Assembly: GCA_002269645.1 (NCBI GenBank)
Contig: NIVC01003328.1
Coordinates: 1 to 64,000, forward strand
DNA length: 64,000 nucleotides
Origin: Macrostomum lignano
Lineage: Eukaryota
Direction of reading: 5' to 3'
Shown here: positions 7,333 through 44,854 of the stretch, piece by piece
Position numbering within the stretch: the first letter of the stretch is position 1
How the letters are laid out: each line of letters begins with the position of its first letter
Made by a program: the position numbers and the translations under genes
Notes under the pieces: generated by a model
Database searches by the model: none
The model's input: the letters and a program-made list of their open reading frames with translations, nothing else
Told to the model about the DNA's origin: nothing

Positions 7333-9152
7333 TCAGTCGTCGCCACCATCCTCGCCTTCGTGCTTCCGCTTGGTGCCGCGTCGACTCGACGAAGCCTCGT
7401 CATTGACATCACCGGCTGCGGCGGAGACGTCGGCGGCCCCCACTTTGCCGCCCTTCGACTTGGAGCCCGAGGCAGCTGAGCTGTTGGCGCCCTCCTCCTC
7501 ATCTTCTTCGTCGATGTCATCATCGTCGTCCTCGCCGCCGTCCGCCTCGGGGTCGAACTCGTCGTCCTCTTCCTCGTCGTCGACGTCGTCGCGCTGCAGG
7601 TAGGCCAGATCGACCTCGTCCTCTTCGTCTTCCTCCTCGTCCTCCTCATCGTCTTCCTCTTCGCCGTATTCACCGTTGGCGTAGTGCTCCTCGCCTTCGC
7701 CGCCGGCTTGTCTTGTCTTGTTATCCTTTTGTCGCCGGTAGGCGTGGATTACCCGAATGGTTACTAATCTCGTTCCCATCGGGTTTTTGACCTTGATATT
7801 GTTTAGGGAGGTGCTCTGGGTGGTCGGTCCAGAGCCACTCTGATAGGGGAAGGTTTGCCCCCGAAACATAGTTTTTACACTATGGTCGAGGGCCTCTCCC
7901 CCCCCCCGGTTCTCTCTTTGCCGGCCGGAAGGCCGCCCGCTTGGCACCTCTTGACGGTGGAGAACCGTTGCACCAGCCTTCGCCGCCGGCCTCTCCGTCG
8001 TCTTCGTCGTCGTCCTCCTCGCACTCCTGGCCCTCGGCGTCTAGGCCGTCGAGGAATTCGACATGCGGTAGCAGGCCAAACACAGAGTCCCTGGCGGGCG
8101 GGTGATCACAGATTCGCGTACAACTCGCATCGGCTTCTGGACGCCTTATTTAAAGGCGACGGGATAAACCCCTTGTGGTGCCATCTCTTTAATGCCTGGT
8201 CCAAGGTCCTGGGATGAAGGAATCCTTGGCCCTTGAGTGCATGGAGCTGCTATCCCCCTGGTCCTTAAGTGCAGCTATCCCCTGGCCCTGGTCCTTAAGT
8301 GCAGCTATCCCCTGGTCCTTGAGTGCAGCTATCCCCTGGTCCTTGAGTGCAGACAGCAGCTATCCCCTGGTCCTTGAGTGCAGCTATCCCCTGGTCCTTG
8401 AGTGCAGCTATCCCCTGGTCTTTGAGTGCAGACAGCAGCTATCCCCTGGTCCTTGAGTGCAGCTATCCCCTGGTCCTTGAGTGCAGACAGCAGCTACCCT
8501 CTGGTCCTTGAGTGCAGACAGCAGCTATCCCCTGGTCCTTGAGTGCAGACAGCAGCTATCCCCTGGTCCTTGAGTGCAGACAGCAGCTATCCCCTGGTCC
8601 TTGAGTGCAGACAGCAGCTATCCCCTGGTCCTTGAGTGCAATTCCCTTGCTACCACCTGGTCCTGAGTGCAGACAGCTGCTATTTGCCCCGTCCTAAGTA
8701 CAGCTATCCACCTGGTCCCTCAGCGCAGGTAGGCAGGTGTAAATCTAAATTTGAAAGCTTGCATACCTGTAGCCCTCAGCCTCAGTGACGGCGCAGCCGT
8801 ACAAGTCGAGGGTTCGAAGCTTTTTAAGGCTGGCCAGCGGCTTCAGGGCGTCCAGATCGCGAATGCGGTTGCCGCTGAGGTTCAGCTGGGCGAGGGCCGG
8901 ACATCCGGCCAGGTGTTGCAGGCCGTCCAGCAGCCGATTATCTGACAGCTCGAGGCGGCGCAGCTTGGGCAGGGCAGGGAAGCCGGCCAGGCTCTGCAGG
9001 CCGACATTGATGAGGCTGAGGGTTTCCAGATTCACGTACTCGTGCGTGAGGCCCTCCAGCGCGCTAGCCTTGCAGTTGTCCAAATTCAACTCGGTGATGT
9101 TGGCCGGTTCTTTGTTCCGGCGCTCCAGCTCGAGCCGCTGCTGCATGGACAT
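7333..9152 (-). CDS. ANP32: ANP32 family acidic leucine-rich nuclear phosphoprotein; exon 1 ~9152-8767, exon 2 8090-7333 interrupted by an insert at 7708-7975
   Basis: MSMQQRLELERRNKEPANITELNLDNC...LELSDNRL...LNLSGNRIRDL...LDLYGCAVT (ANP32 LRRs); GT at 8766, AG at 8092-8091; joined YR|DSVFGLLPHVEFLDGLD matches the LRR cap YRENVFKLLPQLTYLDGYD; acidic tail with VDLAYLQ and GTKRKHE NLS ends at TGA 7333-7335. Confidence 0.92.
7708..7975 (-). mobile_element. 268-bp retroposed insertion (SINE or truncated LINE 3' end) inside ANP32 exon 2
   Basis: Identical 15-bp flanks GCCTTCGCCGCCGGC at 7693-7707 and 7976-7990; (AAGAC)n tail AACAAGACAAGACAA at the 3' end on the minus strand. Confidence 0.8.
8229..8720. 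repeat. Intronic minisatellite, 31-bp unit CCTTGAGTGCAGACAGCAGCTATCCCCTGGT with a 24-bp variant
   Basis: Tandem copies visible inside ANP32 intron 1. Confidence 0.95.
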
Positions 9153-9870
9153 CATCTGCGATATGGTGGATGGGAGCAATGGGCTAATGAGGGGGACAGG
9201 ATTTTAGGCTGGGTACCTAAAACGCCCTCAACAATAGCTATATCTATATCCGACTTCTATTTAAATTAGATATTAAAACCAGTTGCCTAGCGATGTGATA
9301 AATTAGACAATATGCAATCAAGCATAAACTTTGCATAACTTGAGTTAAGCTGAAGAAGTTAGTAGTTAGTAGTAGTTAGTTACTGTTATCATTAATATAA
9401 TAGGTAAATTAATGAGTTATAGGCAATATATATTAAGCATTTAAAATACATCACTATAAACTCTAGAATTACTATCAGCAAACATTTTAAACAAAAATAC
9501 TAAAAATGATTTTTCAAGTAAATGTAGCTCTTAATCTTTTATGCTAAAGTAAAAAAGGCTGATTTGATCTGATTTGAAGTAAATTTGATTGAATAAATAA
9601 TACAAAAAGTATATTAAAGTCACTAAGCCTAGTCAATCAAACACAAATAGTTTATCACCAATTAAAAGTACACAAAAAGTACAATAAGCCTAATTACTAT
9701 TTGAAAATCAAAATGAAATAGTATTATATTTAAGCAAATATATTCTAAAAAAGCAAATTTTAATTTAGGGTAGAAGATTATTCGGTAAACTTATTTGAAA
9801 AAAACATTTTTTGTTGAAAAAATGCATTTTTGGAATTTGCAAAGGGGATAAAGAAGGATTGCCATTATTT

Positions 9871-11143: not shown

Positions 11144-11927
11144 ATTTTTTGTAAAGTAATTAAACATGAAAAACTAGGATTGTTCAAACACCAAAATGTT
11201 GGCAGGCAACCATGCTAAACAATAGGTCTACTATAGGCCTAATTAATTAGGTCTATATAATTATGATTAGACCAGGCACTGCTAGTGCTATTTATTATAC
11301 AAATCAATTTTAGTCTTGAAACAATAAAAGTTTAAATAGTTAAGTTAGGCCAATTAAGGATACTGAGGCAGAGGCACTAACCTTTCAGATTGTTTTGTGT
11401 TTTGAAGGCTGCAGAAAACTATATGAAATTATGAATTGGTAGACCAGATCAGACCCTGTCACAACTAAAAAAATTGCGAATCTAACTTAACAACAAAGAT
11501 GCGCTGTCGCTGTGTACTATATTATAGACTATATATTAGAATATTAAACAATAAACAGCGGACACAGCGGAAAAATTACGGGTTGCCTGGCTAAAGTTTA
11601 CTGCTACTTCAAACACAAAAATGAGCGAGCATTTGCCCTTGATGAACTAAACGCTAAGCATGCTAGGTCAGTAGGCTGCGAGTCGAGATTGTTTAAAAAT
11701 ATTTGAGTAAGCACGTTTTTTTTTTAGAAAAAACAATCAGTCAGTCAGACATTTTTAAACTCGGAGAAATATTATTTAAAACAAGATTTTTAAAATTAAA
11801 GTATTATTTCAAAAGGTTACAAGTAAGATAAAAATTAGTCAAAAAAAGCATGTAAAAACAGGATGTTAAAAGGCTCATTCTTACTTTAGACACAAGTTCG
11901 CAATCGAATACCTAATTATTACCCTAC

Positions 11928-12856
11928 TGTGGTAGGCCGGTCTACCACTGGGGAGAACGACGGCAGGCCTCTAGCGCGAACACCGGCGGGACATTCCACC
12001 CAGTTCCACGGACGGATTGACGTCATTTTTTTCAATTTTTGTTCCCTGGTTTGTTCCCCCGGTTGTTCCCGCCCTTGCTCCCTCGTCTGTTCCCTTTTCT
12101 GTTCCCTCCCTTGGCCCCTGTTGTTTTAATGTTTCCAGCGGCCGGGTTTTCCTTTTTCCCTTCGTTGTCCCTTCCCTTGTCCCATCCTCCGTCCCACCCC
12201 TGGGATCCTTCCCGCCAAAATGTTATTTATATGAGTTTTCTCTGGAGACCTTTTTTCCTTTAGTTCTTTTGTTCGTTAGTTTTAGTTTTGTGTGTGTTAG
12301 TTTAGTTAGTTTTAGTTTTAATTCTAGTTCTCCTTTTCTGTTTCTGATCGTTTCATCTCGCGTAGCAGTAATAACAATCGGTAACAACAATTAACGTTAT
12401 AATAATAAAAGTTCGCCACATTTAATATTCATTCAGTTGTTCAGAATCGAAGCCTTTAGTTTCTATTGAGTCATTTGCCCGCGGGGCGTAAAATAACCAA
12501 TCAGTCTCATCTCAAAGAAAGCTCTGAGACCCTAAACGTTCCGTAAAACGACATTTACGGTGGTGGCAGCGCTACTTTACTACTGAGAGTAACACAACTA
12601 GCAATCCTCGACGAATTACGAGTTTACGGTGTCTGAGGACCCATTCTGAACGACTCGGGCCGCTACTAGACCGCTCGACTACGATTACGACTACCCTCCC
12701 CCCGGAATTGAGGACCCGGCAGACGGAGTAACCAAGGAGAAGAATCAACGCATCAATTGCACAATTTTCCGGCTTTACGTGCCGACGACAAACCCAAATT
12801 TTATTCTCCCAATTTCAAATTTTTTTCTTTTTATTTTCTTCTCCACCCCCACCTCA
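11928..12856 (+). repeat. 5' LTR (929 bp)
   Basis: TGTGGTAGGCC...CCACCTCA; matches 21114-22044 by eye except for a T-run length (T4 vs T6). Confidence 0.95.
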
Positions 12857-12857
12857 T

Positions 12858-12877
12858 TGGTGCCAGCTAAGTGGGAT
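12858..12877 (+). promoter_or_regulatory. Primer binding site, tRNA-Leu-like
   Basis: TGGTGCCAGCTAAGTGGGAT lies 1 nt after the LTR and resembles the TGGTGTCAGAAGTGGGAT (tRNA-Leu CAA) PBS of many Gypsy elements. The tRNA assignment is from recall. Confidence 0.65.
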
Positions 12878-12923
12878 AACGAAACGCCGAAATCCTTTCA
12901 ACGAGTCGTTCAAAATTTACGTC

Positions 12924-14330
12924 ATGGCTTCGACAACTAACTCAACGGCCGCGGATTCGACAGCCGACACCGCGGGCCCTGACAACTCAACTACTAGGCC
13001 GACCTACGACGAGATGATTCGAGCAGTGACCGAAGAGGTGAGACGGCGACTGGAGCAGGCCAACTTGGGACAGCCGCAGCACCATCACCACGTGTATCAG
13101 CCGCCCCAACAGCCTGACCGAGCTCCGGCGCCGAAACCGGTCAAGATTCAGCGGTACACCCCGAACCAGGACTTTGACGTCTGGATCCAAGCTCTCGAAG
13201 AGCGTTGCGAACTCAACGGGATCGTGGACGACAGACGTAAGAAGGCGGAGGTCCTAGTGAATTTGGACATCGCCACAACCTATCCCGCAGTCGTCAGGAT
13301 GGAACTGCCGGACAATCTGACGTTTGGCGAATTCAAGCAAAGACTGTCCGAGCGCTTCACCCACGTGGCCGACACGCTGGAGTACCGTGAGCAATTCCGG
13401 TGCTGCCAGCAAGGCAAGAATGAGAGTGTGGATGACTACGGCGATCGATTAATTGCTCTGGCCGATAGAGCGTTCCCGCACTTCACCCCGGTTCAGAAGC
13501 AGGCCGAACTTGTGGACCAGTTCACCGTGGGAGTGCGAATTGCCCAGTCAGCCAGAGAACAGCTAATCCTGGTGCGACCGCAGAATCTGACCGCAGCGAG
13601 AAGGGCTGTGCTACGCCTGGAGACAGCAGCTAGCCTGGCTCAGAGGGTAGCACCGCCGCCAGCAGCGAGACATGTCCGGGTTCTCGAGGATGACGATGGT
13701 CAGTCACCAACTGGAGTGCAACACGACAAGTCATCTCGGCCCGAGGAGAATTGGTTGCGTGAAGTGATGGAACAGCAAACTGAGACACTGCAAGAGCAGC
13801 GACGTCTACTAGAAGCTTTGAGCAATGAGCTGCGAGAGTTCCACTCGCTGGGGTCGCGCAATAACGACACCCAGGAGCATTGGGAATCTGCTCGCCACCA
13901 GCCGCAGGACTCTTGGGGCCAACGCAACAGATGTTTGGTGCCCTCGACTCCTCGCCGCAGCGCCGATGAGAGCGCCCAATTCAAGACACCCGGCACACGG
14001 ATTGTGCAGCACGAGCAGTTCCATCGACTTCAGCAACCACGAGACGGCAGCAACCCGCCGCCAAGGACGCCGCCAGCAGGAGGTCAACGTCGACAGCAGC
14101 AGCAGCAGCAGCAGCCGCAGCGGCAGCAACAGTCGGGTTCACGCCCGCCGCCCTATCAGCTGCGGCGACAGAGCGCTATGTGTTACAGGTGCAATCGCGA
14201 GCACCGCGCCGATGAGTGCCCGCACCGGCGGTCGGCCAGCACCGCGCCCCAGCGCAATGGCAGCTCGGGAAACGGGACGGCTGGACGCGCCAACGGGGGC
14301 AGCGCCATCCAGCAGCCGAGCCAGCACTAA
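12924..14330 (+). CDS. gag: Retrotransposon Gag (468 aa) with capsid-like region and CX2CX3HX4C zinc knuckle
   Basis: ATG in good context; IQRYTPNQDFDVWIQALEERC...F..FKQRLSERF...QQGKNESVDDY..RL..LA..AF; knuckle CYRCNREHRADEC. Confidence 0.9.
   Translation: MASTTNSTAADSTADTAGPDNSTTRPTYDEMIRAVTEEVRRRLEQANLGQPQHHHHVYQPPQQPDRAPAPKPVKIQRYTPNQDFDVWIQALEERCELNGIVDDRRKKAEVLVNLDIATTYPAVVRMELPDNLTFGEFKQRLSERFTHVADTLEYREQFRCCQQGKNESVDDYGDRLIALADRAFPHFTPVQKQAELVDQFTVGVRIAQSAREQLILVRPQNLTAARRAVLRLETAASLAQRVAPPPAARHVRVLEDDDGQSPTGVQHDKSSRPEENWLREVMEQQTETLQEQRRLLEALSNELREFHSLGSRNNDTQEHWESARHQPQDSWGQRNRCLVPSTPRRSADESAQFKTPGTRIVQHEQFHRLQQPRDGSNPPPRTPPAGGQRRQQQQQQQPQRQQQSGSRPPPYQLRRQSAMCYRCNREHRADECPHRRSASTAPQRNGSSGNGTAGRANGGSAIQQPSQH
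14267..14313 (+). promoter_or_regulatory. -1 programmed ribosomal frameshift signal (gag-pol)
   Basis: G GGA AAC heptamer at 14267-14273 in the correct gag phase, a 6-nt spacer, then stem GCTGGA (14280-14285) / TCCAGC (14308-14313). Pol lies in the -1 frame. Confidence 0.75.
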
Positions 14331-17300
14331 GGTCCCCGCCGAGGACTTTAGTCGCTCAGCAGGCCACTGCTGAGACCGCCTCCGCTGCACCTGTACATAA
14401 CTCTGCACCCAAGCGACCCCGAAGGGATCCGTTTCTAACTGGTGAGATTCAGGGTCGTTATTTTGCTTTTCTGCTTGACACCGGCTCCAAGTGCGAAGTC
14501 CTAGGATTCAGCACCTGGCACCGACTATGTACCGATGACCCGACCCTGCGTGGCCAAATCGAGCCCTGCCTGCAACGCATTGTGACCTACAATGGAGAGC
14601 CTATTCAAATGGCAGGCCAACTATCAATCAAAGTTAAAATTGGAAGTTTCGAGCCTACAGTCAAGTTCCTGCTAGCGAAGGAATCTCATGACAACATCCT
14701 GGGCTTCGAGTTCCTGGAGAAGTACAGTACATCACTGGATCTCGCCGCCGGGATGCTGTTTTTTAAGGATGGCACTGCCGCACCACTGCGCTATACGCGA
14801 ACCGAAGCTACCACGTGCAGAATCTACACGGCTGAGAGCACAACCGTGCCGCCGTTATCATCAGCCCGAATTAAGATTAAACTAGCCAAAGGACGAGAAG
14901 AAAACCAGGGCACACCCGCTGTGATCGAGCCGCTAAAACCGGCTCGGCGGGAAGAAGATGTGCAGCAACTGGACGCCGCGCCTGCCCTAATATCTATGGC
15001 CAATGGAGAAGGCGCCATTGAGATGATCAATCGAGGCACTACTTCCATCAAAGTGCGAGCGAATGCCCTAGTTGGGATTGCTAGACCAATCAGACTGCCC
15101 GAGTTACAATTCTTTCCGCTGCCGAAGCCAGAAGCTGCAGTCAATCAAGTTCAAGACGAAGATCCAGACGCTTGGATCAAAGAGATCGACATCGGCGAGG
15201 ACTTGTCCAATGACCAGCGCGCTCAAGTCATCGAGCTATTGAAGAAATACAAGACCATCTTCTCGCAGGGGCCACACGATCTCGGCCGAACTCACCTGGT
15301 CACCCACAACATCGTGTTGAAGGACAAGAATCCTGTACATCTGCCGACCCGAAGGATTCCGCCGCATCTGCTGCCCAAGGTGGACCAGCTACTTGACGAT
15401 CTGCTTGCCAAAGGCGTGATTAGACCGAGCTTCTCCAGCTACAACACCCCGCTGGTGATCATCCCGAAGAAGGACGGCAGCCTGAGAATTGTACAAGACT
15501 TCAGGAGTCTGAACCAAAAGTGCGAGTACTTTCCGTACCCGATACCGAACATCCAGGAAGCGTTCGCTAGCCTCGAAGGAAGCCAGCTATTCAGCACGTT
15601 CGACTTGAACAGCGGCTACTACCAGATTCCACTGCGTCCAGAGGATCAAGATCTGACGGCCTTCGCCACGCTGCACCGCGGACAATTCGCCTACAATGTG
15701 ATGCCTATGGGATTAAGTTCGGCGCCAGCCAGCTTCATGCGCCTCATGAACGCTGTGCTCAACGGGATCGCCTACAAAAGTGCAATAGCCTATCTGGATG
15801 ACGTAATCGTCTATTCTAAGAAATTTAATGACCATCTACAGCATATGGAGGAAGTATTTAAGCGAATTCAAGAGGCCAACTTAAAGTTCAAAGGCAGGAA
15901 GTGCCATTTATTTCGGGCAAGCCTAAACTATCTGGGACATGTAGTTACTAAGGACGGCATCAAGACCGATCCGGCGAAGATCGAGGCTATTCAGACCTGG
16001 CCAAGACCAAGAACAGCTCGACAACTTAAAAGTTTTGTCTGCACGTGCGCTTACTATGCAAAATTTGTACCTGGCTATGCAGAACTTGCAGCTCCGCTCC
16101 ACGATATAATCAAAGAGAAGAAAATCCGCAATTTCAATTGTCTATGGGGAAAAGCCCAGCAAGACGCGTTCGACAGCTCAAAGCAGCCATGACTTCGACA
16201 TCAGTGCTCGCGTATCCGCAGTTCAGCGAGGATCCGGAAGTAATGTTTATCCTGGACACGGATGCTTCTGCGACCAGAATCGGAGCCTGCCTGAGCCAAC
16301 GCCAAGCTGACGGGATCGAGCGCCCAATTGGCTATTTCTCCCGGCGACTTAAACCGGCTGAAGCCCGATATCCAATTACTAAGCAAGAACTCTTGGCAGT
16401 CGTAGATGGCATGCGACATTTCCGCTTCTACCTGCTGGCCAAGAAGTTCATTTGTCGAACCGACCATGCAGCGTTGACCTGGATTCTCCGGCGAACTCAA
16501 CAAGTAGGCATCTTTGGACGATGGCTACAGCGGCTAAGTGAATTTGAGTTCGAGATCCAGCATCGCAAATCGAGTCAGCATCAAAACGCCGACGGTCTCT
16601 CGAGACGGCCGGAGGACGACGCCGAATGCTTGGAGGAGGCTCAGCGCGAGGCAGCTGATGAGGACCAAAGTAAGCAGCCAGCCGCGATAACTGGCGCAGC
16701 GGCGCCGAAGGTCCACGACAGCAGCCACCCTAGTCCTCCACCGAGCAAGAAGCCGTCGACCCGCCGTAAGCGACGGAAACCGCCGACTAAGCCGAAGGAG
16801 TCCAACGGCGAGGCTACGCCGCCAGCAACACCTACAGCCGACAGCAAGCCGCTGACAGAGCTGCACCCGCCGGCGACGAAGCCGAGGCCATCTGCCAGCC
16901 GTTACGATGACTCGCAGAGGTCGCCTACCAGTTTTAGTAGCACGACATGTTGCCCGTTAAGGAGCCGCCGACTACTAGCTGGAGACGGCACGGACAGCGA
17001 CCACAGCGCAGCCAGAGAGGACAGCTGCCAACCCGCTCGCTGCCCGAAGTTTGAGAAGAAGGTGAGATTCAGCAGCGACGCGGACAGCTCTGCTGACTCA
17101 TCATCAACTGCTGACCGATCTGAATCCGACAATAGTGACGCCGAAGCTACCGACGAGGATCGACCTTCGGGCACATCAACGACCCGGCAACCGGCCAGAG
17201 TAGCGATCGTGCGGAGGGAGCTCCAGACCCCGAACCATGCCGCCACAGCCGAAGCCGCGCCGACTAATTTGACTAATCGACGTTCAACATTGAATCTAAC

Positions 17301-18854
17301 TGATCACATCCCGAGGCCAGTCACACGTGAGGAGCTCCAGACTCACCAGCGTGCTGACTCTGCCATCGCCATGATGATCAACCTTTTGGAAAGCCGACAG
17401 CCGAAGCCGCCGCTGAATCAGCGTTTGAATATGACACGAGACGAACGAAACTTACTAGCGTTCTACGAGCAGCTCGAAGTCCGAGATGATGGACTACTGG
17501 TAATTCATTTCGACGATCTTGGCGAGGAGGAAACGGCGCGGATCGTCCTGCCGAAGAGCCTCGACGCCACGGTGTTCGCCGACCTCCACGGTTCACCCTA
17601 CTGCGGACACATGGGCCGAGACCTCACCATCGCGAAGGTGCGAGAAAGGTTCTGGCGACCTGCCTGGCCAAGGCAGTGTCCGACTATGTCGCTTCCTGCC
17701 AGACCTGCACTCAGAGCAAAGGACGGCGACGAATTCCGGCGCATGTACAATCGTTTCCGGTCTGTGAAATCTATGGGCGATGTGCGATCGACATCCTGGG
17801 CCCCACTGGAGACCCGACGGACCGAGGAAACAAGTACATCTTGACCTACGTCGACACTACGTCGAAATACCCCTTCGCTTTCGCCATGAAGAATCAGCGG
17901 GCCAAGACCATTATAACGCTCCTGCAGGAACAAGTGTTTCCGATCACCGGAATCCCGGCATGGATTCACTCCGATCAAGGGAAACAGTTCACAGGACACG
18001 AGTTCCGGCACTTCTGCGAAGTTTACGGCATCCGGCAGACCACGACGCCGCCGTATTCGCCATGGGCCAATGGACAAGCTGAGTCGTGCAATAAGAACAT
18101 CAAGAAGGTGCTCACCTGTCTCCTAGAAGACCATCAGCAATGGGACAAGATGTTGCCAGCTGCTTTAACAGCTTTAAGATCAGCAGTCAATCGTACAACC
18201 GGGTTCTCGCCGCATTATGTCATCTACGGAGTGCCCTACCGGTATCCGATCGATAACACCCTAGACCGACTGGATGTATCAGCTGACCTCCCGGAGTACA
18301 TTGCCAAACATCAGCGCAGACTGGCCGAGACAGAACGAATTGTGCGACAGCGACTGAGAACCGAGATCCAGCGCCGAGAGGAGTACTACGAGAACCGGCC
18401 AAAGCCCGTGGAGCTGCAGCCCGGAGACTTGGTCTGCCTGGCCAACCCGAAGCTCGAACTGGGAGAGCTGCCCAAGTTCCACCGGCCGTACAAGAGTATG
18501 TACAAGGTCGTCAGGAAAGTCGGAGAAGTGGCGTATTGGATCAAGCCAGCGACAGCCCGCCGAGGACGCCCAGCTGAAATGCTAGTTCATCGTAACAACA
18601 TCATCAAGGTGCCGCAGATGATGGCAGATCGACCACAGGAGCCGCCGCGCCAGACAGAGCGGCCAATGCTGCCCTATGAGTCGAGCGAAGACAGCGAAGT
18701 CGACCCAGCCGATCAGCCCGCGCCAGAGCAGCCGGCCACAGTTCAGCCTGACCTGCGAGGCAGTCAGCTGTTCGAGCCCAGCTTGCGCCACCCGGAGGTG
18801 CTCGCCGAAGGCGACCCGGACTTGCCTGACATCGGCATGGAGATGGAGCTCTAA
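14270..18854 (+). CDS. pol: Retrotransposon Pol (protease, RT, RNase H, integrase), split in this sequence by two 1-bp deletions (~16174, ~17662)
   Basis: FLLDTGS (protease); YLDDVIVYS (RT); DTDAS...ELLAV...TDH..L...NADGLSR (RNase H); H-X5-H...CQTC zinc finger with IDILGP/SDQGKQF/GQAE (DDE integrase) and a GPY/F-like KFHRPYKSMYKV. ORFs 14216..16192, 16045..17844 and 17676..18854 join after restoring one base at each break. Confidence 0.93.
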
Positions 18855-19017: not shown

Positions 19018-19425
19018 TGTTCTCCTTATGCTTTCGGGATAAAAGCAACTAACTTTTCTGTCCGTTTCCTTATGCTTGATGGCAAAAGCAGTGTTTCTCA
19101 ATGTACTTTCCTTATGCTTGAGGGTAAAAGCAACTCATTTTCTGTACTTTCCTTATGCTTGAGGGCAAAAGCAATTAATTTTCTGTACTTTCCTTATGCT
19201 TGAGGGCAAAAGCAATTAATTTTCTGTACTTTCCTTATGCTTGAGGGCAAAAGCAATTAATTTTCTGTACTTTCCTTATGCTTGAGGGCAAAAGCAACTA
19301 ATTTTCCAATTTCCTTATGCTTGAGGGATAAAAGCAAATAATTTTCTGTACTTTTCCTTATGCTTGATGGCAAAAGCAGTGTTTCTCAATGTACTTTCCT
19401 TACGCTTTCCGGTCAAAAGCCTTTG
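19018..19425 (+). repeat. About 10 tandem 41-bp units (TTTCCTTATGCTTGAGGGCAAAAGCAATTAATTTTCTGTAC) inside the retrotransposon, between pol and ORF3
   Basis: Directly visible; three identical central units with more diverged outer units. Confidence 0.92.
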
Positions 19426-20314
19426 TACATTGTGCTCATGCTCAATTGGTGCCCATATTTATTCAACGCGACCCGCACTCCTGCGTTCTGATATTTAGCC
19501 TTAGGCTTGATGGAAAAAGCCAGCACCTACGCGACAATTAATTATCCGCATGCGATTCATCAATTTGCTCAATTGCGTGTCATTAACTTTGCGAAGTTTT
19601 ATTTCAGTTGTAACCTTGCAGTCCTTGCTTGTGGCTGAAGGTATCTTTTAATTTTTGCAAGCCAATGTTGCTCTGGTGTCCCAGTCGTTTGCCCCGCTCA
19701 GGTCTAGCCACCCTGGCTCTAGGCCTTGTCCTCAGCGGAGGGCATCTGAGGTGAACGGCCCCCATTTTCTTTGTTCTGACCGAGCCGAGCCTGGGAAAAT
19801 TTGTAAGGGCGCCTGTCCAGCCCCTTCCCAGTGCCTTTTGCCGTTTTGTGTAACTCCTCATGGAGATCCAAATTCTAACTCGGTCACTATGCCTGTATCT
19901 ATCTGCTATTCTAATTTTTAGGAACTATTTATGTTCTTACTATTTTTCTAAACTACTGTTTATGCGATTGTTCAGCCCCCCCTCTCTCTAACCGCCAACC
20001 TGTTTTGTGAGCCGTGTGAGGCGCCCCCATTCATTCATTCTGATTTTGGACCCCTGCCGCGCGGTTATCTATTTTATGACTCCTTGATTCATGCGCCCAC
20101 CCCAACTCTGTGTGCCACCTTAGAGTGCACGGGGGTGATGGCTCAATTCCAGTGGTTGAATTTTATTTCCTCTGGTTGGTTTGGAATTCCACCAGTTGGA
20201 ATATTTTGCGCCCTATTTAAGGAGCCATCTTCAATTTTATTTTCTCCAATTCTGTTGATCCGACCTGCCAACTGAATATTTCGGACTGTCGCATCACGCT
20301 CCGCCGCTTCGAAT

Positions 20315-21061
20315 ATGGCTAACAATTGGTCAAATTACTCCAACGGTTCCCCGGAGGTCGAATCACCGATCAGCCGCGAAATCCGCCTGGCCTTCGAGCA
20401 GCTGGACGAGCGCGGCCAAGTACCGACCCACGGCGGGGCCGCACAAATTGATCAGGCAGCTTTGGAGACCTTCGAGCTCCCCGAGCCTGCCGTGCCCACC
20501 AACAGCCCTGATGTCTGGGTGGACGGCCTCCTGACCCTAGTGGGCGCACAACAGCTCGCGCCGGAGCCGGAACCTGTCCGCATCCTGGAGCCAGACCGGC
20601 AGGTGACTCCGCCTCTCCCGCCTTCAAACTGGACCAGTGGCTCCAGCCAGCCGTCGCCAGTGGGAGCAGCCGCGCCAGGACCGAGGCCCGACCAGGTGCA
20701 GCACCTGGCCGCCCTATTGCTCCGCGAATTAGAAGGCGACCGAGCCGCCCGCCATATGAGCGACTGTCGACACTGGCACGGCTACGCCAACACGTTCGGC
20801 CAACCGACAGTCGCCCGTGCCATCAGCTTAGCGGCCGCGGTGCTCTGCGAACGACACCGGCAAGCGCCGGGCGGCCTGCCGTACGGCGCCTTCTGCGCAT
20901 TGGTCGGCCTATATGTCGACCACGCGGCCACCCTGGGGCAAGGTCTGACCACCGCGCTGCTCCAGCTGAGCCATCAAGCACGAGTCGCGAGCTCGCCGCC
21001 GTCCCTTCCGAACGCCCCTGCTCGCCGAGGCCGGCCGGCGAAGCAGGATCGCCGCCACTGA
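20315..21061 (+). CDS. Third ORF (248 aa) of the LTR element, unknown function, not env-like
   Basis: Intact sense ORF with AATATGG start, GC-rich codons like gag/pol, ending 52 bp before the 3' LTR; no signal peptide, furin site or clear C-terminal TM helix. Confidence 0.75.
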   Translation: MANNWSNYSNGSPEVESPISREIRLAFEQLDERGQVPTHGGAAQIDQAALETFELPEPAVPTNSPDVWVDGLLTLVGAQQLAPEPEPVRILEPDRQVTPPLPPSNWTSGSSQPSPVGAAAPGPRPDQVQHLAALLLRELEGDRAARHMSDCRHWHGYANTFGQPTVARAISLAAAVLCERHRQAPGGLPYGAFCALVGLYVDHAATLGQGLTTALLQLSHQARVASSPPSLPNAPARRGRPAKQDRRH

Positions 21062-21113
21062 GACGTCCGGGAGTTCGTCTGTCTGCTGCCGTTCGCCTTG
21101 GCGCCCCCGCGCC

Positions 21114-22044
21114 TGTGGTAGGCCGGTCTACCACTGGGGAGAACGACGGCAGGCCTCTAGCGCGAACACCGGCGGGACATTCCACCCAGTTCCACGGACG
21201 GATTGACGTCATTTTTTTCAATTTTTGTTCCCTGGTTTGTTCCCCCGGTTGTTCCCGCCCTTGCTCCCTCGTCTGTTCCCTTTTCTGTTCCCTCCCTTGG
21301 CCCCTGTTGTTTTAATGTTTCCAGCGGCCGGGTTTTTTCCTTTTTCCCTTCGTTGTCCCTTCCCTTGTCCCATCCTCCGTCCCACCCCTGGGATCCTTCC
21401 CGCCAAAATGTTATTTATATGAGTTTTCTCTGGAGACCTTTTTTCCTTTAGTTCTTTTGTTCGTTAGTTTTAGTTTTGTGTGTGTTAGTTTAGTTAGTTT
21501 TAGTTTTAATTCTAGTTCTCCTTTTCTGTTTCTGATCGTTTCATCTCGCGTAGCAGTAATAACAATCGGTAACAACAATTAACGTTATAATAATAAAAGT
21601 TCGCCACATTTAATATTCATTCAGTTGTTCAGAATCGAAGCCTTTAGTTTCTATTGAGTCATTTGCCCGCGGGGCGTAAAATAACCAATCAGTCTCATCT
21701 CAAAGAAAGCTCTGAGACCCTAAACGTTCCGTAAAACGACATTTACGGTGGTGGCAGCGCTACTTTACTACTGAGAGTAACACAACTAGCAATCCTCGAC
21801 GAATTACGAGTTTACGGTGTCTGAGGACCCATTCTGAACGACTCGGGCCGCTACTAGACCGCTCGACTACGATTACGACTACCCTCCCCCCGGAATTGAG
21901 GACCCGGCAGACGGAGTAACCAAGGAGAAGAATCAACGCATCAATTGCACAATTTTCCGGCTTTACGTGCCGACGACAAACCCAAATTTTATTCTCCCAA
22001 TTTCAAATTTTTTTCTTTTTATTTTCTTCTCCACCCCCACCTCA
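21114..22044 (+). repeat. 3' LTR (931 bp)
   Basis: Direct repeat of 11928-12856 followed by the CTAC TSD. Confidence 0.95.
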
Positions 22045-22165
22045 CTACCAACGGTCTATATTACCTACCTATATCGAATATCTGAATACCTAAACTCAAT
22101 TTGGATTACGAGATAATTGTTGATAGCGAATATGATGCATATATATTTTTGATACTAATATGTAC

Positions 22166-27144: not shown

Positions 27145-30100
27145 ATGGAGGAGACACACCTCCACAGCAAACTTAGACCCACAAGCGGTAAGCACAAAGA
27201 AAATGGTTAGGAAGGCAAAAATCCAGCCCAGTATTTTCAAAACACTCCGAGGCGGCCGCGACCCCCCTGCCCGCCCCTTCAAGTGAAGTGGAGGCTTTGC
27301 TGGGCCAGTTGGCAGTCCATTTCACGCTGCGTTGCAAATTCACAGCAGCAAAGTCACTCGGCATTCGGGCCGGGTCTATGACAGAGAGCTATGTGAGACT
27401 AGACAATAGCTCAACTGCTACTCATTCTTGTGACAAATGAATCCTCCACCAGCCACACCCATTTAGTCTCGGCATTTAAAGCACGAAGCCGTTCTTCCTC
27501 TGCAACAACTCACTCAACTTGCCCCCTCGCCGCACCAGCAACACAACTCTAAACACAGCAGGCATGCCTGGACGTCTAAACGTAGCGAAGGCGGACCACA
27601 AGTTTGCCGCGTCGAACCAGAGCCGTCGAATTCAATTCATTGTAGTCGCCGGCGTGCTGCAGCTCGCCTTTCTCATCATTTTTGGTATCTTCGTCCGCTA
27701 CGACAGCGCTGCTGACGCAAAGTACATCGGCGACCCTGACGTGGTTGCCAAGAAGCGAGGAGTCAGCGGTTCCAGTACACTGGGCCCGCCGGTAAAGGAT
27801 GATCTGGCTTCATACTACTCAATGTTTCAGGACATCCACGTCATGATGTTTGTCGGCTTTGGATTCCTCATGACTTTCCTCAAGAGATACGGATTCAGCA
27901 GTGTGGGCATCAACATGTTCCTGGCATGTATTGTCATTCAGTGGTCCACGATCGTGCGTGGCTGTTTCCACCTACACGATGGCAAGATCACCTTTGGCGC
28001 AATGGATCTGCTGTATAGTGACTTCTCGTGCGTTGGCACTCTGATTTCATACGGCTGCGTTTTGGGAAAGCTCACTCCCGTGCAAATGATGATCATGGCC
28101 ATGATTCAGGTTCCCATCTTTGTTGGCAACGAGTATTTGGGTCTCGAGATTTTCATGGTTAAAGACGTCGGAGGTTCGATCTTTCTACATATCTTTGGAG
28201 CTTATTTCGGCCTGTTTGTGTCCCTGGTGACATTCGACAGGAACGTTGCCGGGCACCGCAGTGATTCAACCATCTATCACTCGGAGATCTTCAGCATGAT
28301 CGGTACCCTGTTCTTGTGGATGTTTTGGCCGAGCTTCAACTCCGCCGTCGTGCTTCAAGACAGCAGATTGCGAGGGGTCATCAATACCTACATCACCTTG
28401 AGCTCCTGCACGGTTGTTGCTTTTCTATTGAGCGCTGCATTGACGGAAGACCGAAAGTTTCTGATGATGCACATTCAGAACAGCACCATAGCTGGTGAGT
28501 TACTTTAATAAATGCTACGAGCGTATGTCCGAAGTAGCTCGTATCTTCTTGAAAATACGAATAGGAAAGCTTGCACTGCTTTGCTCAGCAGTTCGAGAAA
28601 TCCTTTTGTTTTTAACTATTGATGAGACAAAACTATATATATATATATGTTTTATATATTTGATGGGTTTCGACCTTCCGGCCCCCTTGTGGGGAAGCCT
28701 TCGGGCCTCAGGTCTCAGAAATAAATCAATTAGAGACCTGGCCCCCCACTCCTGTCGGATGGTCAGCCCCATGGTAGCTTGATCGTGTGGCGAGCAGTCT
28801 AGGTCCTATAGCTAAGAGAGGGACAGCGAGAGACAAGCAGGGAGAATTTTGAAGGTAGAAATTAGCTAATCCGCAGACTAAGCTAACTCGCTGCCACCAA
28901 CCCGTGCGCCCTGGCTCACCACACCGGGGCTCTCGAAATCGGGCTTCCGACTAGAGGGGGCTTGCACTTACCTGCCAACTAGTGTCTTTTTGCTGTCAAT
29001 CTCGAAGTCATAGCCGATGATAAGGGACACTGCTGGGACTAGATCGCATTGGCCATGCAGGTACAGAGGGGACTTGTGCAGGGGATTCTTGCAGTGGCGA
29101 GTCTATGGGGTAGCTACATGTACTATTACATTGCTAAATACGAAGATATGTACTTTTGGCTTTCAACGCGCCAACTAGCCTCTCATAGCGCTGATGATAG
29201 ACTAACTCGAACTTCAGAGACCGCATGATTCATTACCCGAGCCGCTTGGCTAACTTAGAGTGCACAAAGTACATCTCTGGCGCCGATTCTGCACTTCTGG
29301 CAGTTTTGCTCACTGATTTGATTGATTGATCGACTGAGAACCGCCTTGCCATTGGTCCACTGTGACCGGTGCCTACTAGCTTAGCTACTCATCTGAGCCA
29401 TCGGCGAACAAAGAAATAAAACCGATAAAAATAACTGTTAAATTTAACCTTCTCCTTAGATCACTTCACACCTCAGATTGAATTGGAGTTTCAGACTACT
29501 AGCAGTATTATTGAATGACTTCTGCCTCAGCAACAGCACTACTGAACAAAATGAGCAAAAGTGTGCGCCTAATCCAGCTACTGAAACAGGGGACAGACAG
29601 GGAATCACCCAATCAAGCAAGTCTAGGTAGCCTCTCACCCAACCAATCAGAAACTCAACAGCCGGAGACCAGGAAATCCACAGTGACCGAATCGGCTTGA
29701 TGCTTCGCAGCTGTAGACTCGGGATGATGCTGACACAATCTTCGCTGATAGCTAGCAGGTGATGATCTTAACTTTGATGTTCGCTGCTGATGACCGGGGG
29801 ACTCGTCCTTGATGATGATGATGGGAAGTCGCAATCTGGGGATCAAGAAACGACGGTCGCGCTCCGGGATGTCTCAAGCTAGGCTAAGATCCCAGGAGGT
29901 TGGAGTCCGAGCGGGCCAAAAACTCCGGTTTAAATAGCCGCCAACTGGACCGCAGTTTGTTATAATGGAACACGTCGATTCTGATTGGCTGAGCCGCTTT
30001 GTTAAAATGAGCACCGAATTTTCTGATTGGCTAAGCTTGTTGCTACCCAGAATCACGTGACCGAGAGATCCCATCAGTTCCCACAGGGTCATAAAAAGAT

Positions 30101-37605: not shown

Positions 37606-40600
37606 AGTTGGGTAAATACTCGTATTTGATTGATACTCGTAGTTGATAAATCACTCGTAGTTGATTGATACTCAGTTGATAGTTACTCGTAGTTGATTGA
37701 TTATGATTGATATCAACTACAAGTATCGAATATGATTGATACTTGTAGTTGATTGATACTCGTAGTTAATAAATCACTCGTAGTTGATTGATACTCGTAG
37801 TTGATTGATACTCGTAGTTGATTGATACTCATAGTTGATTGATACTTGTAGTTAATAAATCATTCGTAGTTGATTGACACTCGTAGTTGATTGATACTCG
37901 TATTTAATAAATCACTCGTAGTTGATTGATACTCGTAGTTGATTGATACTCGTAGTTGATTGATACTCGTAGTTAATAAATCACTCGTAGTTGATTGATA
38001 CTCGTAGTTGATTGATACTCGTAGTTGATTGATACTCAGTTGATTGATACTCGTAGTTGATTGATACTCGTAGTTGATTGATACTCGTAGTTGATTGATA
38101 CTCGTAGTTGATTGATACTCGTAGTTGATTGATACTCGCAGTTGATTGATACTCGTAGTTGATAAATATTCGTAGTTGATAAATATTCGTATTTGATAAA
38201 TACTCGTAGTTGATAAATACTCGTAGTTGATTGATACTCCTAGTTAATAAATCACTCGTAGTTAATAAATCGTTCGTAGTTGATTGATACTCTTAGTTGA
38301 TTGATACTTGTAGTTGATTGATACTTGCAGTTGATTGATACTCGTAGTTGATTGATACTCGTAGTTGATTGATACTCGTAGTTGATTGATACTCGTAGTT
38401 GATTGATACTCGTAGTTGATTGATACTCGTAGTTAATTGATACTCGTAGTTGATTGATACTCGTAGTTAATAAATCACTCGTAGTTAATAAATCGTTCGT
38501 AGTTGATTGATACTCTTAGTTGATTGATACTTGCAGTTGATTGATACTCGTAGTTGATTGATACTCGTAGTTGATTGATACTCGTATTTGATTGATACTT
38601 GCAGTTGATTGATACTCGTAGTTGATTGATACTCGTAGTTGATTGATACTTGTAGTTGATTGATACTCGTAGTTGATAAATACTCGTAGTTCATAAATAT
38701 TCGTATTTGATAAATACTCGTAGCTGATAAATACTCGTAGTTGATAAATACTCGTAGTTGATTGATACTCGTAGTTAATAAATCACTCGTAGTTGATGGA
38801 TACTCAGTTGATAGTTACTCGTAGTTGATTGATACTCGTAGTTGATTGATACTCGTATTTGATTGATACTCGTAGTTGATAAATATTCGTAGTTGATTGA
38901 TACTCGTAGTTGATTGATACTCGTAGTTCATAAATACTCGTAGTTCATAAATATTCGTATTTGATAAATACTCGTAGCTGATAAATACTCGTATTGGATA
39001 AATACTCGTAGTTGATTGATACTCAGTTGATAGTTACTCGTAGTTGATTGATACTCGTAGTTGATTGATACTCGCAGTTGATTGATACTCGTACCAGGTA
39101 TTTGATAAATACTCGTAGTTGATAGATAATCGTAGTTGATTGATACTCGTAGTTGATTGATACTCGTAGTTAATAAATCACTCGTAGTTAATAAATCGTT
39201 CGTAGTTGATTGATACTCGTAGTTGATTGATACTCGTAGTTGATTGATACTCGTAGTTGATTGATACTCGTAGTTGATTGATACTCGTAGTTGATTGATA
39301 CTCGTAGTTGATTGATACTCGTAGTTGATTGATACTCGTAGTTGATTGATACTCGTAGTTAATTGATACTCGTAGTTGATTGATACTCGTAGTTAATAAA
39401 TCACTCGTAGTTAATAAATCGTTCGTAGTTGATTGATACTCGTAGTTGATTGATACTCGTAGTTGATTGATACTCGTATTTGATTGATACTTGCAGTTGA
39501 TTGATACTCGTAGTTAATAAATACTCGTAGTTGATTGATACTCGTAGTTGATTGGTACTCGTAGTTGATTGATACTCAGTTGATTGATACTCGTAGTTGA
39601 TTGATACTCGTAGTTGATTGATACTCGTAGTTGATTGATACTCGTAGTTGATTGATACTCGTAGTTGATTGATACTCGTATTTGATTGATACTCGTAGTT
39701 GATAAATATTCGTAGTTGATAAATATTCGTATTTGATAAATACTCGTAGTTGATAAATACTCGTAGTTGATTGATACTCCTAGTTAATAAATCACTCGTA
39801 GTTAATAAATCGTTCGTAGTTGATTGATACTCTTAGTTGATTGATACTCGTAGTTGATTGATACTCGTAGTTGATTGATACTCATAGTTGATTGATACTC
39901 GTAGTTGATTGATACTTGTAGTTAATAAATCATTCGTAGTTGATTGACACTCGTAGTTGATTGATACTCGTAGTTGATTGATACTCATAGTTGATTGACA
40001 CTCGTAGTTGATTGATACTCGTATTTAATAAATCACTCGTAGTTGATTGATACTCGTATTTAATAAATCACTCGTAGTTGATTGATACTCGTAGTTGATT
40101 GATACTCGTAGTTAATAAATCAATCGTAGTTAATAAATCGTTCGTAGTTGATTGATACTCTTAGTTGATTGATACTCGTACTTAATAAATACTCGTAGTT
40201 GATTGATACTCGTAGTTGATTGATACTCGTAGTTGATTGATACTCGTAGTTGATTGATACTCAGTTGATTGATACTCGTAGTTGATTGATACTCGTAGTT
40301 GATTGATACTCGTAGTTGATTGATACTCGCAGTTGATTGATACTCGTATTTGATTGATACTCGTAGTTGATAAATATTCGTAGTTGATAAATATTCGTAT
40401 TTGATAAATACTCGTAGTTGATAAATACTCGTAGTTGATTGATACTCCTAGTTAATAAATCACTCGTAGTTAATAAATCGTTCGTAGTTGATTGATACTC
40501 TTAGTTGATTGATACTCGTAGTTGATTGATACTTGCAGTTGATTGATACTCGTAGTTGATTGATACTCGTAGTTGATTGATACTCGTAGTTGATTGATAC

Positions 40601-43600: not shown

Positions 43601-44006
43601 ATAAATACTCGTAGTTGATAGATAATCGTAGTTGATTGATACTCGTAGTTAATAAATCACTCGTAGTTAATAAATCGTTCGTAGTTGATTGATACTCGTA
43701 GTTGATTGATACTCGTAGTTGATAAATACTCGTAGTTGATTGATACTCGTAGTTGATTGATACTCGTAGTTGATAAATACTCGTAGTTGATTGATACTCG
43801 TAATTGATAAATACTCGTAGTTGATTGATACTCGTAGTTGATTGATACTCGCAGTTGATTGATACTCGTAGTTGATTGATACTCGTAGTTGATTGATACT
43901 CGTAGTTGATTGATACTCGTATTTGATAAATACTCGTAGTTGATTGATACTCGTAGTTGATAAATACTCGTATTTGATAGATAATCGTAGTTGAGTTACT
44001 CGCAGC
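37606..44006. repeat. 6.4-kb satellite, 17-bp unit GTAGTTGATTGATACTC with variants (GTAGTTGATAAATACTC, GTAGTTAATAAATCACTC)
   Basis: Hundreds of directly visible tandem copies; variant blocks recur in the same order. Confidence 0.98.
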
Positions 44007-44854
44007 TGGTGCACAACTTGCATGGCTGACGTCTTGGTCGGTCTATTGACCGGTTCCTGGCATTCGCCAGTGACTGAATCTCTGCGGCTGCCTGGAGTTT
44101 CTGTACTCAGGCATTCTCAGATCCCGTCTACGTTCTCAGAGCTGTTGTTCCCCCCGGGTTGCCCCCACAAAACACTCCGTTTCTCCCCCCTCATCTGCTT
44201 TCATGCGGCTCTCTGTCCTCGTAAGGGGAGTTTTCTAAGAAACACCGCGGCCCCAGCGACCCAGAACCGGCCTTCCTCCTCTCCGTTCCCTATTGAAATC
44301 TGCTCACGCAGTCCCGGCTATTGAAACTGCCCCGCTAGACCTGCGATGGCGCGTTTCCTCGCAAATCTGGACTACAAGAGCCCAGCTTCCGGCGCGGAAA
44401 TTGCTAATAAATGTCAGCATGCAAATTAGGGGGCTCAGCGCTGGGGCCTGAGCTTGAGTCCGCCCGCCCGCACGCTCAGACACGCACGACTCAATAAGCT
44501 CCGGTCCGGGGGAGCGCCGGTGAGGATTAAGATAAATGGGACAGGCCCGGCGCTGGAGGTGGCTCTTTGTCACCCGGCCTCCCCAAGATGGATTGTTTGG
44601 TGAAGGAAACTCGCGTGTAAATCACCGCCTCGCTAGCAGCAACAACGGCCGATTAAGGCCCGATGGCGTGCGCGCAACAAACCTCAGGGCGCCGGGCTCC
44701 TTCCATTTCCTGACCCCTGCGCCCCCAGCCTCCCTTGCCTGTCTGCTCTTCATCTTCTCCGGCTTCCTCGCAGATGTGGGTCCTGAGTGTTTTTTTGCTC
44801 TCAGTTTCCGGGGCTCTGAATTTGAATTGAAATTTTCCTGTTTTCTTGAAATTG

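What the first reader, a model, noticed from the sequence alone, without database searches (positions are those of the whole stretch)
20315..21061. Orphan third ORF in the env position of the Gypsy element
An intact 248-aa sense ORF retained in a very young element. It has an acidic/Pro-rich disordered N-half, a ~100-aa predicted helical domain rich in His/Cys (HMSDCRHWH...LCERH...FCALVGLYVDH) and a basic AT-hook-like tail. It lacks Env hallmarks (signal peptide, furin site, TM anchor), and I do not recognise it. A TATTTAA at ~20214 about 100 bp upstream, or an acceptor TTCAG at 19971-19975, could give it its own mRNA. With the hairpin array and Pol linker it may form an undescribed accessory module (anti-silencing, targeting or RNA handling). 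This is the best candidate for a novel system in the window.
Basis: partly seen in the sequence, partly recalled or inferred. Interest (0 to 1): 0.78.

Follow-up and report, generated by a model that had tools for sequence, protein, structure and literature searches.

The report
Retrotransposon with two alternative accessory genes
A flatworm jumping gene carries a real, conserved extra gene whose slot is filled in sister copies by a second, unalignable gene; both versions persist side by side in about a dozen sub-lineages, so the two proteins likely work as a pair supplied by different copies.

Summary
The 248-codon ORF is real, is not Env and matches no known family. It is the accessory gene (class A) of a young Ty3/Gypsy family; database labels on near-identical proteins read Macrostomum lignano. 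It is under purifying selection (dN/dS 0.13-0.21 against three open relatives) and sits behind a conserved TATA box, so it likely has its own mRNA. The His-rich and AT-hook readings fail across alleles. New here: sister elements fill the same slot with a second, unalignable helical gene (class B). Of 139 classed copies 74 were A, 62 B and 3 a B-A fusion. In five A/B sibling pairs the upstream flank is 97-99% identical and the downstream flank 84-98%, against 45-60% between lineages. Eleven of 22 larger 3'-flank clusters hold both classes, A and B distances covary over 12 lineages, and class flips 17 times on the integrase tree. Best reading (0.45): a lineage-specific two-part trans-acting module split between sibling elements. 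Binding, transcripts and function are untested, and two young lineages lack a young partner. The scan noted orphan third ORFs elsewhere, but no look-alike of this one and no such pair.

The parts
11928..12856 (+). 5' LTR (TG..CA), preceded by the 4-bp target duplication at 11924-11927
12857..12878 (+). primer-binding site (tRNA-Leu-like by recall, not tested)
12924..14330 (+). gag
   Evidence: Retrotrans_gag E 4e-4, below the curated cut-off
14216..18854 (+). pol (RT, RNase H, integrase in that order, protease-sized region in front); in three frames in this copy, broken near 16.2 kb and 17.7 kb
19024..19420 (+). array of ten copies of a short hairpin-like motif in a 41-nt repeat; shared by A and B elements and across lineages
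20086..20147 (+). conserved upstream sequence element (C-rich box plus AGAGTGCA-like box), 45-100 nt before the TATA box; no covariation support for an RNA structure
20214..20222 (+). TATA box of the inferred internal promoter
20315..21061 (+). ORF3, class A, 248 aa
20326..20959 (+). exchangeable cassette: the part replaced by the unalignable class B sequence in sibling elements of the same lineage
   Evidence: window against L074
20315..20683 (+). acidic, Pro-rich N-half with a conserved amphipathic helix at about residues 64-80; candidate activation region (inferred), absent from class B
20684..20995 (+). conserved helical core, residues 124-227
20960..21061 (+). basic Arg/Gly tail, shared with the class B protein of the same lineage
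21114..22044 (+). 3' LTR, followed by the target duplication at 22045-22048; no purine tract in front of it

Best explanation
The ORF is a selected accessory gene of a Ty3/Gypsy family, one of two mutually exclusive cassettes (A here, B in sister copies) behind a shared TATA box, and A and B likely act together in trans as a lineage-specific two-part regulator that each sub-lineage needs in order to keep spreading. Shown: the two classes, their shared flanks and tail, purifying selection on both, retention of both in many lineages, repeated exchange of pol between A and B elements. Inferred: an internal promoter makes a short mRNA; the proteins are nuclear; the shared basic tail binds nucleic acid or imports them; A brings an acidic activation-like arm that B lacks; co-packaged A and B genomes recombine, which keeps flanks alike within a lineage; because all copies sit in every germ-line cell, each can rely on the other class in trans. 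Most likely target (guess): the lineage's own U3/LTR promoter, as a transactivator or anti-silencing factor, possibly as an A-B heterodimer.
For: No fetched locus has A and B as separate neighbouring genes; 74 A, 62 B, 3 fused of 139 classed, 2 loci without hit. Five of six sibling pairs 97-99% identical upstream (the sixth has a deletion there), six of six 84-98% downstream, cassette BLASTP E 0.5-3.2; six same-class pairs from different lineages 45-60%. 11 of 22 3'-flank clusters with 3 or more members hold both classes. A and B core identities over 12 lineages correlate (Spearman 0.52, p 1.5e-4); clades 1+2, 4+10 and 5+11 appear in both trees with support 97-100; larger trees agree. On an integrase tree of 66 elements class changes 17 times (shuffled mean 22), lineage 23 times for 20 states (shuffled 51). 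Integrase dS 0.005, 0.011, 0.038, 0.12 in four A/B sibling pairs against 0.03-1.2 across other pairs. A and B copies with LTR pairs 98-100% identical coexist in at least five lineages. Three copies carry an open 291-codon B-core/A-core fusion. All 12 A proteins tested have a net-acidic N-half (-8 to -20); the 11 B proteins have N-extensions of 10-29 residues. TATA-like box at -235..-80 in 15 of 21 against 0-1 in five control windows; 2 ATGs downstream of it against 21 in equal lengths upstream, 16 elements.
Against: One young B element (L076) and one young A element (L057) have no young partner of their own 3' lineage in this assembly. Ten of 22 larger clusters are single-class (some pair through the 5' flank or the trees). 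Congruent trees follow from shared ancestry and homology-limited recombination and do not show co-adaptation; pairings 10 and 12 are weak. A-B homology is not significant (hhalign 12.2 against null mean 11.9; 15.2 against null maximum 15.9). No known DNA- or RNA-binding fold was found. The TATA pattern was written after looking at the sequences, and sibling pairs are not independent. Two chimeric copies carry neither gene, and several integrase-bearing loci (12 more of 20) gave no A or B hit.
Confidence: 0.45

Rival explanations
1. A and B are independent alternatives, each useful in a different host setting (for example male against female germ line or stem cells, or two different host defences), acting mostly for the copy that encodes them. 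The matching trees would be a by-product of recombination that works only between alike flanks.
For: Young lineages with one class only exist; no A-B interaction is shown; homology barriers to recombination are discussed for LTR retrotransposons (PMC6894440, passages).
Against: A balance that acts only genome-wide should let each lineage drift to one class over the long time implied by near-saturated dS, yet at least 11 clusters keep both; A and B of a lineage share one promoter region, so they should be made in the same cells.
Confidence: 0.2
2. Activator and attenuator, as with foamy virus Tas and Bet: A switches the lineage's LTR on, B (same tail, no acidic arm) competes or shields and limits damage to the host; rare-type advantage keeps both.
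For: Internal-promoter layout next to the 3' LTR; B lacks the acidic half; Tas activates and Bet suppresses the internal promoter (PMC13220597, abstract). Pol-dead copies keep an open B gene or B-A fusion without the acidic half, as a host-kept brake might.
Against: A pure brake gives its carrier no gain, yet B cores are the more conserved class (40-64% against 27-66%; dN/dS 0.08-0.28 in diverged pairs) and B elements are as young as A elements.
Confidence: 0.18
3. The pair works on RNA, not on the promoter: a Rev/CERV-like export factor, or a packaging mark that favours particles holding one A and one B genome, in effect mating types that force recombination.
For: Arg/Gly-rich tails are typical of RNA binders (established knowledge); an array of hairpin-like motifs lies in the genomic RNA only; class flips almost freely on the integrase tree; CERV is needed for genomic RNA export in Cer1 (PMC10309623, abstract).
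Against: The array core is not lineage-specific and survives in a chimera with neither gene; the conserved upstream element shows 0 of 6 pairs with compensatory change; A's acidic half fits transcription better; A-to-A and B-to-B sister copies also occur.
Confidence: 0.13
4. A degenerate Env, a captured host gene or a non-coding open frame in GC-rich DNA.
For: Position between pol and the 3' LTR; long overlapping frames exist here by GC content.
Against: dN/dS well below 1; open alleles at 30% identity; no membrane or signal stretch; no Pfam, PDB or protein-database relative for A; the only B relatives among 1.8 billion representatives are this family's own genes.
Confidence: 0.04

Closest known systems
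Conserved additional ORFs between pol and the 3' LTR of LTR retrotransposons (Vicient and Casacuberta, PMC7264820; part 1 of 3 read)
   Same: Sense ORF in the env position, kept in most copies, origin and function unknown.
   Different: In the part read, one additional ORF type per family; no pair of alternative cassettes within one family.
Non-env ORF3s of bdelloid rotifer Juno/Vesta elements (PMC5408684; passages)
   Same: Different ORF3 types fill the same slot in related animal Gypsy-type elements.
   Different: Those are recognisable enzymes, described as family-specific; here two orphan types recur inside each sub-lineage and exchange pol.
Foamy virus Tas/Bet (PMC13220597; abstract)
   Same: Accessory proteins from an internal promoter near the 3' LTR; two products with different roles.
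   Different: Both come from one genome by splicing; here the two genes are on different sibling genomes. No sequence or fold link was found, and activity is untested.
Oikopleura Tor elements with an internal promoter for ORF3 (PMC4402516; passages)
   Same: Third gene transcribed from a promoter downstream of pol.
   Different: Tor ORF3 is a membrane glycoprotein Env.
VANC anti-silencing proteins of Arabidopsis VANDAL transposons (PMC5735166; abstract)
   Same: Fast-diverging element-encoded proteins that could act on cognate copies in trans.
   Different: DNA transposons; single protein; targets are tandem repeats that differ between families, while the array core here is shared.
CERV of C. 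elegans Cer1 (PMC10309623; abstract)
   Same: Orphan regulatory protein of an animal Gypsy-type element.
   Different: Made from a spliced mRNA; one gene per element.
Segmented/multipartite genomes arising from complementing cheats (review PMC11281779; passages) and autonomous/non-autonomous pairs such as RLG_Cereba/RLG_Quinta (PMC11302176; abstract)
   Same: Functions divided between separately transmitted genomes that complement in trans.
   Different: Here both partners keep gag and pol and recombine; only the accessory slot is divided.

Membership tests
Ty3/Gypsy LTR retrotransposon (the carrier) | LTR pair with target duplication, gag, and pol with RT, RNase H, integrase in that order | tested here: met
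Ty3/Gypsy LTR retrotransposon (the carrier) | clade within Ty3/Gypsy by RT phylogeny (Mag, CsRN1, Osvaldo, Mdg3) | not tested
   no reference RT set was at hand
Retroviral/errantiviral Env | signal peptide and C-terminal membrane anchor | tested here: not met
   highest 19-residue hydropathy 1.19 here, 0.78-1.73 over 24 proteins; N-terminal 10-residue maximum 0.25 (simple hydropathy only)
Retroviral/errantiviral Env | conserved furin site | tested here: not met
   none in this protein; an R-x-K/R-R motif in 5 of 24, at no shared place
Retroviral/errantiviral Env | fusogen fold | tested here: inconclusive
   small helical model, no clear match; absence from a list does not exclude
His/Cys metal-binding domain | conserved set of three or four ligands | tested here: not met
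   only C151 (17 of 19) and C194 (15 of 19) are kept; histidines 1-11 of 19
AT-hook protein | RGRP core | tested here: not met
   present here but in 4 of 24 tails; 23 of 24 have Arg-Gly pairs
Tas/Bet-type accessory module | internal promoter upstream of the accessory gene | tested here: inconclusive
   conserved TATA and ATG-free leader; no start site mapped
Tas/Bet-type accessory module | both products from one genome by splicing | tested here: not met
   A and B lie on different elements
Tas/Bet-type accessory module | transactivation of the cognate LTR | not testable with these tools
   needs a reporter assay
VANC-type anti-silencing system | cognate tandem-repeat targets that differ between related elements | tested here: not met
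   array core motif shared across lineages and classes; U3 differs by lineage and remains a candidate target
VANC-type anti-silencing system | sequence-specific loss of silencing marks | not testable with these tools
   needs chromatin data
CERV/Rev-type export factor | expressed from a spliced mRNA | tested here: inconclusive
   no listed joint leads into the ORF in contigs of four runs; contigs cannot show absence
CTD-interacting (CID) fold | structural match above the helical background | tested here: inconclusive
   B model: Seb1 CID Z 7.1, rmsd 3.2, 90 aligned; Nrd1 6.1; Ctk3 6.0; A model: Seb1 Z 5.8, rmsd 4.4, 92 aligned; within the range of common helical arrangements
Autonomous/non-autonomous pair or segmented genome | one partner lacks core replication genes | tested here: not met
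   both classes include elements with gag and a continuous pol frame

The most novel reading that the evidence does not exclude
A retrotransposon family with two obligate types: A and B elements encode the halves of a lineage-specific lock-and-key complex, so a sub-lineage can only spread when both types are in the genome, and the system behaves like idiomorphic mating types that keep sibling elements recombining; pol-dead B and B-A fusion genes would be host-kept decoys against it.
Probability: 0.3. Interest if true: 0.92.

Novelty: new variant of a known kind. Interest (0 to 1): 0.76.

Why it matters
Extra ORFs in LTR retrotransposons are common and mostly unexplained. This one comes with a natural experiment: about a dozen sub-lineages, each with its own A allele, B allele, promoter and U3, in a worm with transgenesis and RNAi, so cognate against non-cognate combinations can be tested directly. 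If A and B complement each other, it would show cooperation between sibling transposons with division of an accessory function across genomes, a step that theory proposes for the origin of segmented viruses, and would add two new small protein families that may recognise lineage-specific DNA or RNA. It also warns that family consensus sequences hide such dimorphic slots.

Tried and rejected
Database searches without a hit: Pfam for the ORF and for all 16 A and 17 B alignment members (one DUF3248 row at E 0.06), PDB sequences (best E 1.3), 5.8-billion-protein search with the ORF and with the A alignment (near lengths only), ESM Atlas for both cores. Fold searches: no Foldseek match at E 0.001 for A in PDB or B in the viral library; best VIA Z 8.1 (A; rmsd 3.7, 102 aligned) and 7.6 (B; rmsd 4.2, 118 aligned); the A model was not run against the viral library. 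My first impression that A and B are paralogues was not confirmed by profile comparison; 15 of 50 VIA entries are shared, about eight at nearly the same residues, which only suggests a common helical topology. A third ORF in two chimeric copies proved to be the Pol tail of another family and unrelated to A or B. A conserved RNA hairpin upstream of the TATA box is not supported. A tandem A+B progenitor was not found among 140 loci. Codon-model omega values were not captured by my script, so only Nei-Gojobori pairs are given; pairs against the reading: A 0.59 at dS 0.09 and B 0.54 at dS 0.04, and 0.47 and 0.60 for two distant A pairs with unreliable dS. Expression: no RNA holder listed; contigs from runs only guessed to be RNA cover parts of the leader and the core, which I do not count as evidence; the RNA-versus-DNA control could not be run. 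Complex prediction of A with B was not available, so binding is open. Literature searches for the pair or the gene labels gave nothing relevant; PMC8775202 (passages) was irrelevant.

Full report
OBSERVATION. The ORF is at 20315-21061 (+), 248 aa, inside a Ty3/Gypsy element whose LTRs are 99.8% identical over 932 aligned bases, with a 4-bp target duplication, gag, and pol with RT, RNase H and integrase. The pol gene of this copy lies in three frames; 10 of 60 fetched 10-kb loci hold one frame of 1545 codons or more. Proteins identical or nearly identical to family ORFs are labelled Macrostomum lignano in public databases.

IT IS A REAL GENE. A search of the own genome gave 94 match rows. In 40 fetched loci most matches lie downstream of this family's integrase, and open alleles only 30-55% identical to the window protein sit in elements whose RT, RNase H and integrase segments are 94-100% identical. 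Nei-Gojobori dN/dS of the A core against three open relatives is 0.13, 0.19 and 0.21 at dS 0.21, 0.44 and 1.36; over all 11 pairs it runs from 0.09 to 0.60 with one saturated, the high values coming from a very close pair and two distant pairs with unreliable dS; integrase between lineages is mostly 0.01-0.05. Neutral change would close the frame in 98% or more of runs at these distances. The predicted structure has a low-confidence N-half and a five-helix core (block pLDDT mostly 70-86). Env hallmarks are absent; the histidines and the AT-hook core are not conserved, two cysteines mostly are. No family, sequence or fold relative was found.

EXPRESSION SIGNALS. A TATA-like box ending in G lies 80-235 nt before the start codon in 15 of 21 elements, against 0-1 in five upstream control windows and 0.3 in shuffles (pattern written after inspection, siblings included). 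A second conserved element lies 45-100 nt upstream of the box, without covariation. An internal promoter is therefore likely; no transcript was shown. Internal promoters for a third gene are known in Oikopleura Tor elements (PMC4402516, passages) and foamy viruses (PMC13220597, abstract).

THE SLOT HAS TWO CLASSES. Three copies encode a 291-aa protein whose C-half is an A core and whose N-half is something else. Searching with it gave about 88 further rows, by my count, that match only that N-half (134 of 217 candidates scored). These class B genes sit in the same slot of the same family, form a 140-aa helical family with dN/dS 0.08-0.28 in eight diverged pairs, 0.54 in one very close pair and one saturated, and have no outside relative among 1.8 billion representatives. 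I fetched 140 loci chosen from the hit lists (62 of the about 88 B rows; most but not all A places): with the window, 74 are A, 62 B, 3 fused, and 2 gave no hit; 21, 24 and 3 have an open ATG-to-stop frame by my script's rule. The assembly holds near-duplicate contigs, so counts overstate independent insertions. A and B cores are not detectably homologous, though helix order is similar and 15 of 50 structural neighbours are shared.

SIBLING PAIRS. Against L074 the window element is 96% identical from the 5' LTR to the first codons of ORF3, unalignable over 20326-20959, and about 90-96% identical again from the last helix through the tail and 3' LTR. Six pairs give 97-99% upstream (five; the sixth has a deletion) and 84-98% downstream, with no significant protein match between cassettes, whereas six same-class pairs from different lineages give 45-60%. 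Clustering on tail plus U3 gives 22 clusters of three or more; 11 hold both classes, one is the fusion, ten are single-class, some of which pair through the 5' flank or the trees. Over 12 lineages A identities (27-66%) and B identities (40-64%) correlate (Spearman 0.52, p 1.5e-4, 20,000 permutations) and three well-supported clades recur (broken partners read with X; pairings 10 and 12 weak). On an integrase tree of 66 elements the class changes 17 times (shuffled 22 +/- 2.2, p 0.02) while lineage needs 23 changes for 20 states (shuffled 51). A and B copies with LTR pairs 98-100% identical coexist in at least five lineages. Against strict pairing: a young B element and a young A element have no young partner with their 3' flank in this assembly, and of 20 integrase loci with no earlier A or B hit nearby, 6 gave partial A or B hits, 2 are chimeras and 12 gave nothing.

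MECHANISM. Template switching between co-packaged genomes, limited by homology (PMC6894440, passages), explains why flanks stay alike within a lineage. It does not by itself explain why both cassettes survive in so many lineages over near-saturated dS; that suggests a balance acting inside each lineage, most simply mutual need. All 12 A proteins tested carry an acidic, Pro-rich arm with a conserved amphipathic helix, which resembles activation regions (established knowledge, not tested); B proteins lack it; both end in the lineage's Arg/Gly tail. I therefore favour a two-part trans-acting regulator of the lineage's own promoter, possibly a heterodimer, with the natural fusion as a hint (0.45). 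Rivals: independent niche alternatives (0.2), activator plus attenuator (0.18), RNA export or packaging types (0.13), Env, host gene or non-coding (0.04). The hairpin array is shared by all lineages and occurs without either gene, so it is not an allele-specific target.

COMPARISON AND NOVELTY. Additional ORFs in this position are known (PMC7264820, part 1 of 3; PMC5408684, passages; PMC10309623, abstract), as are cognate-specific anti-silencing proteins (PMC5735166, abstract), complementing element pairs (PMC11302176, abstract) and the idea that complementing cheats split genomes (PMC11281779, passages). The paper on this worm's LTR families (PMC12801592; part 1 of 6, passages, supplement list and one supplement search) has no occurrence of 'ORF' in its main text and works with family consensus sequences; the earlier classification it cites was not seen and may bear on this, as may closed preprint supplements and subscription journals. 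Seven paper searches listed nothing on alternative accessory cassettes kept in parallel within one family. Earlier scan notes show no look-alike sequence, orphan third ORFs in other genomes and J-domain third ORFs in this one; they did not change my reading. Verdict: real gene, new variant of a known kind; interest 0.76; the obligate two-type reading has probability about 0.3 and would deserve 0.92.

Noticed in passing
window 21085-21113; L059, L066, L067, L078, L079, L085, L087: No purine tract in front of the 3' LTR; a C/G-rich motif stands there in the window and in seven other copies whose LTR start was read, although the family makes new copies. Plus-strand priming is unexplained.
   Followed up: partly
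L061:1389-2261, L062:7740-8612, L064:1389-2261: Open 291-codon B-core/A-core fusion in copies whose gag and pol are deleted and carry 1-5 stops and whose 5' LTR was not found; database label Mlig013834. Its halves group with an old A cluster and an old B cluster. Possibly kept by the host.
   Followed up: partly
L072:1366-2064, L073, L094: Open class B gene with TATA box but almost no gag/pol or LTR nearby; database label Mlig017912.
   Followed up: partly
L171, L172:2827-3399: Chimeric elements: this family's integrase and array followed by the Pol C-terminal domain of another Gypsy family (64 match rows) and an unrelated 3' region. That orphan Pol-tail domain was not studied further.
   Followed up: partly
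window 11923/22045: A contig of run X1 joins the two flanks across the element, so an empty site exists: the insertion is polymorphic or absent from a homologous chromosome.
   Followed up: no
L078, L079, L047: Copies in which the whole pol-to-ORF3 spacer, array and TATA included, is deleted so that the accessory ORF follows pol directly; two have LTR pairs 98.7-99.6% identical.
   Followed up: no
L089, L122: Two class B genes in tandem about 1.4 kb apart.
   Followed up: no
L045/L046 and other contigs: Head-to-tail elements about 9.5 kb apart, always of the same class in the four cases seen.
   Followed up: no
window 8745-9155 (-) and 27564-28508 (+): Host exons flanking the insertion: a leucine-rich-repeat protein resembling ANP32 and an Rh/ammonium-transporter-like ORF (names recalled from the translations, not searched).
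   Followed up: no
window 37613-44008, 56014-57373, 58802-59293, 8224-8728: Large satellite and minisatellite arrays.
   Followed up: no
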